NCBI RefSeq assembly: GCF_044324785.1
Contig: NZ_CP172127.1
Strand: one strand, 5' to 3'
DNA: 64,000 nucleotides
DNA from: Escherichia coli
Lineage (GTDB): Bacteria > Pseudomonadota > Gammaproteobacteria > Enterobacterales > Enterobacteriaceae
The notes beneath the pieces were generated by a model. That model saw nothing but the letters and a program-made list of their open reading frames with translations, made no database searches and was not told where the DNA came from. The position numbers were made by a program, and so were the translations under genes. Position 1 is the first letter of the stretch. Each line of letters begins with the position of its first letter. Below are positions 11,831 through 11,922 of this stretch, in pieces.

Positions 11831-11922
11831 TGTTTAATTTACTAAACACGGTTTGGTCAGCATAGCATCATGTTGTGCGAATAAACACCTGCTATTTTAA
11901 TATTTGTTACAGTTGCTAAACA
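11831..11922 (-). promoter_or_regulatory. nadB promoter region with NadR boxes TGTTTA-N6-TAAACA (11831-11848) and TGTTAC-N6-TAAACA (11905-11922)
   Basis: Perfect and near-perfect NadR-type palindromes just upstream of the nadB start. Confidence 0.65.

What the first reader, a model, noticed from the sequence alone, without database searches (positions are those of the whole stretch)
11831..11922. NadR operator palindromes in the nadB promoter
A perfect TGTTTA-N6-TAAACA (11831-11848) begins 7 bp from the nadB start codon, and a second TGTTAC-N6-TAAACA lies at 11905-11922. These would mediate NAD-dependent repression. The first box is so close to the ATG that it must overlap the 5' UTR or RBS.
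Basis: partly seen in the sequence, partly recalled or inferred. Interest (0 to 1): 0.25.

Follow-up and report, generated by a model that had tools for sequence, protein, structure and literature searches.

The report
Known NadR operator before nadB
The two palindromes are real and mark the already well-known site where the NAD-sensing repressor NadR switches off the E. coli NAD-synthesis gene nadB, so this is a correct but ordinary finding.

Summary
The window is E. coli chromosome: nadB (10202-11824, minus strand) is divergent from rseD-rpoE. Box 1 (11831-11848) is a perfect TGTTTA-N6-TAAACA, with 0.003 expected per 64 kb. Box 2 (11905-11922) matches 10 of 12 bases.

TGTTTA-N6-TAAACA is the published NadR operator consensus. 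One-mismatch copies sit in front of nadA-pnuC and pncB in E. coli K-12.

Across 79 Enterobacteriaceae species:
- Box 1 is invariant, spacer included apart from one A/C position.
- In box 2 only one extended half-site ((T)GTTTAG) and an in-register AAC are conserved.
- Box 2 always lies 72-75 bp (about 7 helical turns) from box 1.

Conservation also reveals an extended -10 promoter (TGcTATGCT) and an invariant A at 11852 as the likely transcription start. That puts box 1 at about +5 to +22 and box 2 at about -70 to -53.

Best reading: box 1 is the primary NadR operator, blocking RNA polymerase. Box 2 is a weaker auxiliary site (inferred). Published Salmonella and E. coli data already show NadR binding to, and repression of, nadB.

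Verdict: observation confirmed, interpretation supported, already known, low interest. The only mildly new points are the conserved box 2 architecture and the lack of a Shine-Dalgarno sequence.

The parts
11831..11848 (.). Box 1: primary NadR operator. It reads TGTTTAGTAAATTAAACA on the nadB strand, 7-24 bp upstream of the ATG, at predicted +5..+22.
   Evidence: Perfect match to the consensus. Present in 79/79 Enterobacteriaceae species and identical except for one A/C spacer position in 5 of them. Invariant in divergent E. coli strains and K-12.
11905..11922 (.). Box 2: putative auxiliary NadR site. It reads TGTTTAGCAACTGTAACA on the nadB strand, at predicted -70..-53.
   Evidence: 10/12 match. 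GTTTAG is invariant in 79/79 species and TGTTTAG in 68/79. AAC at positions 15-17 is conserved (60, 67 and 68 of 68). The spacer and position 18 are variable. The distance to box 1 is 72-75 bp.
11882..11887 (.). Lone third half-site (TGTTTA on the nadB strand), overlapping the predicted -35 position.
   Evidence: It is present in Escherichia only and not conserved in other genera, so it is probably incidental.
11859..11867 (-). Predicted extended -10 element of the nadB promoter (TGcTATGCT).
   Evidence: TG, TA and the final T are invariant in 16 genera (columns T109 G110 T112 A113 T117) and highly conserved in 79 species. The simple consensus scanner found no -35/-10 pair, as expected for an extended -10 promoter with a weak -35.
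11886..11888 (-). Conserved GTG at about -36..-34 (a weak -35 remnant).
   Evidence: G88 T89 G90.
11852..11852 (-). Predicted nadB transcription start: an invariant A, 7 nt downstream of the -10 hexamer.
   Evidence: invariant A124. This is inference only. No TSS data could be retrieved.
11825..11852 (-). Predicted 28-nt A/U-rich nadB leader without a conserved Shine-Dalgarno sequence.
   Evidence: Between box 1 and the ATG there are 2-8 nt of variable sequence across genera. The RNA hairpin formed by the palindrome is weak.
10202..11824 (-). nadB coding sequence (L-aspartate oxidase), the regulated gene.

Best explanation
This is the NadR operator region of the E. coli nadB promoter. NadR is a trifunctional protein whose N-terminal Cro/C1-type helix-turn-helix binds as a dimer to the perfect 18-bp palindrome (box 1). 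That palindrome lies just downstream of the predicted start site, at about +5 to +22. Bound there, NadR should sterically prevent RNA polymerase from forming or clearing an initiation complex at the extended -10 promoter. Occupancy follows the NAD/ATP balance: ATP releases NadR, NAD displaces ATP and restores binding, and c-di-GMP antagonises binding. As a result, de novo NAD synthesis is shut down when NAD is plentiful.

Box 2 is 74 bp upstream (about 7 helical turns, so on the same face of the DNA) and carries one perfect extended half-site plus a degenerate half. It most likely acts as a low-affinity auxiliary operator that stabilises NadR on box 1 through protein-protein contact or a short DNA loop.

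Shown here: the motifs, their statistics, their conservation, and the same motif at nadA and pncB. Taken from the literature: NadR binding and repression at nadB. Inferred: the TSS position, the steric mechanism, and the role of box 2.
For: - Motif presence and rarity.
- The window is E. coli, with nadB divergent from rseD-rpoE.
- Published consensus TGTTTA-N6-TAAACA, bound by a NadR dimer with NAD: PMC2330245, PMC2330246.
- K-12 nadA has TGTTTAGCATATAAAACA and pncB has TGTTTATTGTACTAAACG, each with 1 mismatch.
- The E. coli NadR N-terminus is an HTH_3 domain (E 2.4e-10).
- Box 1 is invariant in 79 species from roughly 30 genera. The box 2 half-site and the in-register AAC are conserved while its spacer and flanks drift. 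Spacing is 72-75 bp.
- Within E. coli, substitutions fall in the box 2 spacer and flanks, never in the half-sites.
- The conserved TGnTAnnnT and invariant A define the promoter geometry.
- In vivo and in vitro support from the literature: EMSA, ChIP-qPCR, reporters and an 8-10-fold derepression of nadB in Salmonella delta-nadR (PMC12421817); nadB up-regulated in E. coli nadR mutants.
Against: - No experimental TSS for nadB could be retrieved, so the +5..+22 assignment is a prediction.
- The primary footprinting paper (Penfound and Foster 1999) was not available, so I cannot say which bases NadR protects or whether box 2 is bound.
- Box 2's right half retains only AAC, so it would be a weak site by itself.
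- No comparable auxiliary site was found near the nadA or pncB operators, so looping is not a general feature of the regulon.
- Part of the 72-75-bp spacing constraint could be a by-product of the promoter elements lying between the boxes.
- NadR oligomerisation beyond a dimer rests on my memory of the H. influenzae structure, not on anything tested here.
Confidence: 0.9

Rival explanations
1. Box 1 is the NadR operator, but box 2 is not a NadR site. Its conserved GTTTAG...AAC would then serve something else at about -61.5 of the nadB promoter or upstream of the distal rpoE promoter. Candidates are a site for another factor, part of an UP or alpha-CTD contact region, or an element of rpoE upstream control.
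For: - Only one half-site plus AAC is conserved, and position 18 is A in only 34 of 68 species.
- The centre at about -61.5 is a classic activator position (inference).
- Box 2 lies 93-110 bp upstream of a conserved distal rpoE promoter.
- The nadA and pncB operators have no such partner.
Against: - The conserved heptamer TGTTTAG is exactly the extended NadR half-site shared by box 1, nadA and the P. mirabilis niaP site.
- The conserved AAC is in the exact register of a NadR palindrome.
- The spacing to box 1 stays at about 7 helical turns.
- The chance of a <=2-mismatch site this close to box 1 is about 0.006.
Confidence: 0.25
2. The two TGT-N12-ACA palindromes are upstream activating sequences for the sigma-54 activator QseF/GlrR, driving the distal rpoE P2 promoter rather than (or in addition to) acting as NadR operators.
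For: - PMC6075780 gives the QseF UAS consensus as TGT-N12-ACA. It states that glmY-like UAS are seen upstream of the QseF-dependent rpoE P2 promoter.
- Boxes 1 and 2 are the only TGT-N12-ACA motifs in the intergenic region.
- They lie 93-184 bp upstream of a sigma-54-like element, AGGCCGTTGGGTTAC at 11990-12004. That distance is comparable to the glmY sites.
Against: - The three genuine QseF sites in this same window (30675, 30708, 30771) are all perfect TGTC-N10-GACA.
- Both boxes miss the discriminating C4 and G15.
- Matches at that 2-mismatch level occur 3.5 times per kb.
- Conservation follows the NadR motif (TGTTTAG, AAC) and not TGT/ACA, and box 2 position 18 is variable.
- The sigma-54 -24 GG is present only in Escherichia and Citrobacter, whereas the boxes are conserved in all 79 species.
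- The Klein et al. 2016 paper that maps the sites could not be read.
Confidence: 0.07
3. Box 1 acts mainly at the RNA level. The transcribed palindrome would form a hairpin, or act as an A/U-rich ribosome-loading site, next to the start codon and so control nadB translation.
For: - Box 1 is predicted to be transcribed and ends 2-8 nt from the ATG.
- No Shine-Dalgarno sequence is conserved.
- The 6-nt spacer is almost invariant, although NadR sites at nadA and pncB have different spacers. That hints at a second constraint.
Against: - The hairpin is weak: leader MFE -7.2 kcal/mol, z = -1.1, and 27 of 200 shuffles fold as well.
- There is no Rfam match.
- The sequence equals a DNA-binding consensus found in promoters that are not at this position relative to the ATG (-73..-90 at nadA).
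- Published transcription-level derepression in delta-nadR already explains the regulation.
Confidence: 0.05

Closest known systems
NadR operator ('NAD box', TGTTTA-N6-TAAACA) of the enterobacterial NadR regulon (nadB, nadA-pnuC, pncB; Penfound & Foster 1999; Gerasimova & Gelfand 2005, as cited in PMC2330245/PMC2330246)
   Same: Box 1 is a perfect instance of it, in front of a core regulon gene, in a genome whose NadR carries the HTH domain. The nadA and pncB copies were found in E. coli K-12. This is the same element, not merely a relative.
   Different: Nothing differs for box 1. Box 2 is a half-site plus a degenerate half at a fixed distance of about 74 bp. I could not establish whether it has been described before. 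From memory, RegPrecise lists only the -24 site for nadB.
lac-type primary plus auxiliary operator arrangement (O1 at +11 with upstream O3)
   Same: A strong operator just downstream of the start site is paired with a weaker upstream operator on the same helical face. This is an analogy for how box 1 and box 2 might cooperate.
   Different: Looping and tetramerisation are proven for LacI and are only inferred here. The 74-bp inter-operator distance and the repressor family (Cro/C1-type HTH fused to NMN adenylyltransferase and ribosylnicotinamide kinase domains) are different.
QseF/GlrR upstream activating sites (TGTC-N10-GACA) of sigma-54 promoters such as glmY
   Same: They share an 18-bp dyad with TGT...ACA ends, and the boxes lie 90-190 bp upstream of a candidate sigma-54/sigma-70 rpoE distal promoter.
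   Different: The boxes lack the C4/G15 positions that are perfect in all three glmY sites of this window. Their conservation pattern follows the NadR motif.

Membership tests
NadR operator (NAD box) | 18-bp dyad TGTTTA-N6-TAAACA | tested here: met
   Box 1 matches 12/12. Box 2 matches only 10/12, with one perfect extended half-site TGTTTAG. Box 1 is therefore a full member, and box 2 is a partial, half-site-type member.
NadR operator (NAD box) | Lies in the promoter or leader of a NAD biosynthesis or salvage gene | tested here: met
   The boxes lie 7-24 and 81-98 bp upstream of the nadB ATG.
NadR operator (NAD box) | Same motif at the other regulon promoters of the same species | tested here: met
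   K-12 nadA-pnuC has TGTTTAGCATATAAAACA at -90. pncB has TGTTTATTGTACTAAACG at -47. There is no site upstream of nadR itself.
NadR operator (NAD box) | The host encodes a NadR with an N-terminal DNA-binding HTH domain | tested here: met
   E. coli K-12 b4390 is annotated as a DNA-binding repressor/NMN adenylyltransferase. Its residues 7-59 match Pfam HTH_3 with E 2.4e-10. nadR is not inside this window.
NadR operator (NAD box) | Site conserved at orthologous promoters across NadR-HTH-bearing enterobacteria | tested here: met
   79 of 79 species have box 1 at -20..-26. Taxa lacking the HTH form of NadR were not sampled as a negative control.
NadR operator (NAD box) | Bound by NadR in a NAD/ATP-responsive way | not testable with these tools
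   Literature only. EMSA and ChIP-qPCR were done on the Salmonella nadB promoter (PMC12421817). The exact bases protected were not seen.
NadR operator (NAD box) | Target gene derepressed when nadR is inactivated | not testable with these tools
   Literature only. There is an 8-10-fold derepression in Salmonella delta-nadR. nadB is up-regulated in all E. coli LTEE lines with nadR mutations.
QseF/GlrR upstream activating site | Dyad TGTC-N10-GACA | tested here: not met
   Both boxes have 2 mismatches, at C4 and G15. That level of match occurs 3.5 times per kb. The three glmY sites in the same window are perfect.
QseF/GlrR upstream activating site | Lies about 100-250 bp upstream of a sigma-54 (-24 GG / -12 GC) promoter | tested here: inconclusive
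   The only canonical GG-N10-GC on the rpoE strand is at 12183-12196, inside rseD. A near-match, AGGCCGTTGGGTTAC at 11990-12004, would put the boxes at -93..-184. Its GG is conserved only in Escherichia and Citrobacter.

The most novel reading that the evidence does not exclude
The boxes may be dual-use. Besides repressing nadB, NadR (or QseF competing for the same TGT-N12-ACA dyads) bound at 11831-11922 could modulate the conserved distal rpoE promoter about 100-180 bp away. That would couple NAD/ATP/c-di-GMP status to sigma-E expression. In addition, the almost invariant spacer of box 1 may reflect a second role of its RNA copy as the Shine-Dalgarno-less ribosome-loading site of nadB.
Probability: 0.1. 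Interest if true: 0.5.

Novelty: already known. Interest (0 to 1): 0.12.

Why it matters
It confirms that a sequence-only reader correctly recognised a textbook repressor operator. [quoted passage not shown]

The small added value lies in three points:
- A promoter model derived from conservation: an extended -10, a start at about 11852, and the operator at +5..+22.
- Evidence that a second, half-site-type box is under strong purifying selection at a fixed distance of about 7 helical turns.
- The observation that nadB has no conserved Shine-Dalgarno sequence.

None of these changes current understanding.

Tried and rejected
- The sigma-70 and terminator consensus scan of 11700-12350 found nothing. 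The promoter was instead inferred from conservation.
- Experimental TSS data were sought in the supplements of two E. coli TSS papers, by gene name and by coordinates. Nothing was found.
- The primary papers were not held: Penfound and Foster 1999, Grose et al. 2005 and Klein et al. 2016.
- An RNA-element reading was rejected. There is no Rfam hit, and the leader fold is no better than shuffles.
- A CRP-site reading of box 2 was considered by eye and rejected. The right half does not fit TCACA at N6 spacing, and the conserved G7 is not part of a CRP site.
- A second nadB promoter overlapping box 2 was looked for by eye and by scan. None was found.
- Auxiliary sites near the nadA and pncB operators were sought. 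Only 4-mismatch matches turned up.
- The 1-mismatch NadR-like site at 32073-32090 lies inside the qseE coding sequence and was treated as chance (0.1 expected per window).
- The Salmonella locus (L064) lacked upstream sequence, so the Salmonella boxes were not seen directly. Their presence is inferred from phylogenetic bracketing by Citrobacter, Escherichia and Klebsiella.

Full report
**1. What the window is**

A 651-bp query around the finding matches 5,425 of 5,426 complete E. coli genomes. It is 100% identical to strain N3. The RefSeq annotation there gives nadB (window 10202-11824, minus strand), divergent from rseD (12080-12235) and rpoE (12233-12807), followed by rseABC. The translated ORF is a 540-aa L-aspartate oxidase.

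**2. Observation**

The sequence shows TGTTTAATTTACTAAACA at 11831-11848. Six bases separate it from the nadB start codon. TGTTACAGTTGCTAAACA lies at 11905-11922.

- Box 1 is the only perfect TGTTTA-N6-TAAACA in the 64 kb.
- Base composition predicts 0.0026 such sites per window and 0.19 per E. coli-sized genome.
- Box 2 has two mismatches. The chance of such a site within 100 bp of box 1 is about 0.006.
- A lone third half-site lies at 11882-11887.
- The repeat finder reports the two boxes, with two matching flanking bases on each side, as a 22-nt direct repeat spaced 74 bp apart.

**3. Identity of the motif**

Two open papers state that the NadR dimer with NAD binds an 18-bp palindrome with consensus TGTTTA-N6-TAAACA. 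This palindrome sits in promoters of de novo and salvage NAD genes of Enterobacteria (PMC2330245 and PMC2330246, citing Penfound and Foster 1999 and Gerasimova and Gelfand 2005).

- The nadA-pnuC promoter has TGTTTAGCATATAAAACA, 73-90 bp before the ATG.
- The pncB promoter has TGTTTATTGTACTAAACG, 30-47 bp before the ATG.
- Each has one mismatch. Nothing lies upstream of nadR itself.

The N-terminus of E. coli NadR is a Cro/C1-type HTH (Pfam HTH_3, E 2.4e-10). Together with the P. mirabilis niaP site TGTTTAGTATACTAAACA, the sites suggest an extended half-site, TGTTTAG(T)A.

**4. Comparative evidence**

A scan of one genome per species returned 80 nadB loci from about 30 genera of Enterobacteriaceae, with 84-97% NadB identity. 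Of these, 79 had usable upstream sequence. I did not sample taxa lacking the HTH form of NadR.

- *Box 1* is present in all 79, at -20 to -26 from the ATG. It is identical over all 18 positions, except for an A/C change at spacer position 10 in five species.
- *Box 2* has GTTTAG invariant in 79/79 and TGTTTAG in 68/79. On the other side only AAC (positions 15-17) is conserved: 60, 67 and 68 of 68. The spacer, position 18 (A in 34/68) and the flanks drift freely.
- *Spacing* from box 2 to box 1 is 74 bp (45 species), 73 (21), 75 (1) or 72 (1), which is about 7.0 helical turns. Sequence upstream of box 2 is full of indels.
- *Within E. coli*, including K-12, substitutions hit the box 2 spacer and flanks but never the half-sites.

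Box 1 is therefore a strongly constrained full site. Box 2 is a constrained half-site plus a degenerate half, in NadR register.

**5. Promoter geometry (inferred)**

The consensus scanner finds no -35/-10 pair. The 16-genus alignment, however, shows an invariant TG-n-TA-nnn-T (TGcTATGCT, window 11867-11859). This is the signature of an extended -10 promoter. It is preceded by a conserved GTG at about -35 and an A-tract, and followed 7 nt later by an invariant A at 11852.

- Taking 11852 as +1, box 1 spans +5..+22 (centre +13.5).
- Box 2 spans -70..-53 (centre -61.5).
- The Escherichia-only third half-site falls on the -35 position.
- The leader is 28 nt.
- The 2-8 nt between box 1 and the ATG vary in length and sequence and contain no conserved Shine-Dalgarno.

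I could not retrieve an experimental TSS.

**6. Mechanism**

The best-supported model is classical steric repression. NadR on box 1, immediately downstream of +1, prevents RNA polymerase from forming or leaving the initiation complex.

Published work gives the ligand logic and the in vivo proof:
- NadR binds the nadB promoter in EMSA and ChIP-qPCR.
- ATP releases it, NAD reverses the ATP effect, and c-di-GMP antagonises binding.
- Delta-nadR raises nadB mRNA 8-10 fold in Salmonella (PMC12421817).
- All E. coli LTEE lines carrying nadR mutations up-regulate nadB, nadA-pnuC and pncB.

The role of box 2 is inferred. Its NadR-type half-site, in-register AAC, purifying selection and in-phase spacing suggest an auxiliary operator that increases occupancy of box 1 by cooperative contact or looping. 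I put this at about 0.6. No such partner exists at nadA or pncB, and I could not read the footprinting paper.

**7. Rivals**

(a) *QseF/GlrR upstream activating sites.*
- For: PMC6075780 quotes the QseF consensus as TGT-N12-ACA and says glmY-like sites occur upstream of the QseF-dependent rpoE P2 promoter. Boxes 1 and 2 are the only TGT-N12-ACA motifs in the intergenic region.
- For: the full intergenic alignment reveals a conserved distal rpoE promoter, with -35 TGAAAT at 11980-11985, -10 TACTCT at 12002-12007 and a start near 12014. It overlaps a sigma-54-like AGGCCGTTGGGTTAC. The boxes lie 93-184 bp upstream of it, a plausible UAS distance.
- Against: this very window also contains glmY (30905-31052, Rfam 147 bits) with its sigma-54 promoter and three genuine QseF sites. 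All three are perfect TGTC-N10-GACA.
- Against: the boxes miss the discriminating C4 and G15. Matches at that level occur 3.5 per kb.
- Against: their conservation follows the NadR pattern, and the sigma-54 GG is confined to Escherichia and Citrobacter.
- I rate exclusive QseF use as unlikely. Dual use is unexcluded.

(b) *RNA-level function of box 1.* The hairpin is weak (z = -1.1) and no Rfam family matches. The near-invariant spacer and the absent SD leave room for a secondary translational role.

(c) *Box 2 serving another factor.* This is possible but less parsimonious.

**8. Novelty and verdict**

Box 1 is the known NadR operator of nadB. The finding is correct but already known, so interest is low.

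The modest extras are the conservation-based promoter model, the selected half-site box at about 7 turns, and the SD-less leader. The most novel reading not excluded is cross-talk of these dyads with the distal rpoE promoter or with QseF. I give it about 10% probability.

Noticed in passing
window 11980-12014: A conserved distal rpoE-direction promoter: -35 TGAAAT (11980-85), -10 TACTCT (12002-07) with invariant T/A/T positions across 14 genera, and a predicted start near 12014 (about -219 from the rpoE ATG). It overlaps a sigma-54-like AGGCCGTTGGGTTAC (11990-12004) whose GG is present only in Escherichia and Citrobacter. It probably corresponds to the published rpoE P2/P3 promoters, but the mapping paper could not be read.
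   Followed up: partly
window 12122-12149: The canonical sigma-E autoregulated rpoE promoter, GGAACTT-N16-TCTAA. GGAACTT is invariant in all 14 aligned genera.
   Followed up: partly
window 12054-12097: An imperfect 21-nt inverted repeat (76% complementary) contains a perfect TATAAT (12066-12071) and a tandem ATAATGAT repeat. It spans the rseD start codon at 12080. TTATAATGA is conserved across genera. It may be another rpoE promoter, or an RNA hairpin that masks the start of rseD.
   Followed up: no
window 12080-12235: The rseD leader-peptide ORF (51 aa), annotated in RefSeq, overlaps the rpoE start codon (ATGA overlap at 12233-12235), implying translational coupling.
   Followed up: no
window 12183-12196: The only canonical GG-N10-GC (TGGCGTTTCGATAGCG) on the rpoE strand of the intergenic region. 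It lies inside rseD, 37 bp before the rpoE ATG, and is largely conserved. It could be a cryptic sigma-54 site, or simply coding-sequence conservation.
   Followed up: no
window 30675-31052: The glmY sRNA (30905-31052, Rfam RF00128, 147 bits) with its overlapping sigma-54/sigma-70 promoter TGGCACAGTTACTGCATAAT (from 30878). Three perfect QseF/GlrR sites TGTC-N10-GACA lie at 30675, 30708 and 30771. qseE-qseG follow downstream.
   Followed up: yes
window 32073-32090: A one-mismatch NadR-like dyad, TGATTACAACCGTAAACA, inside the qseE coding sequence. About 0.1 such sites are expected per window, so it is probably chance.
   Followed up: partly
window 11825-11830 and loci L035, L044, L048-L050: nadB has no conserved Shine-Dalgarno sequence. 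The stretch between the operator and the ATG is AAGAAA in E. coli but only CC or CG in Cedecea and Buttiauxella, so the A/U-rich operator transcript itself forms the ribosome-binding region.
   Followed up: partly
window about 11935-11950 versus loci L008, L021, L034, L071, L084: Most other genera carry a conserved block, AAAATATTTTGCGAAGCAGATCGTTAGC, between box 2 and the distal rpoE promoter. In Escherichia it is missing or replaced. Its function is unknown, and it may be a regulator site for rpoE.
   Followed up: no
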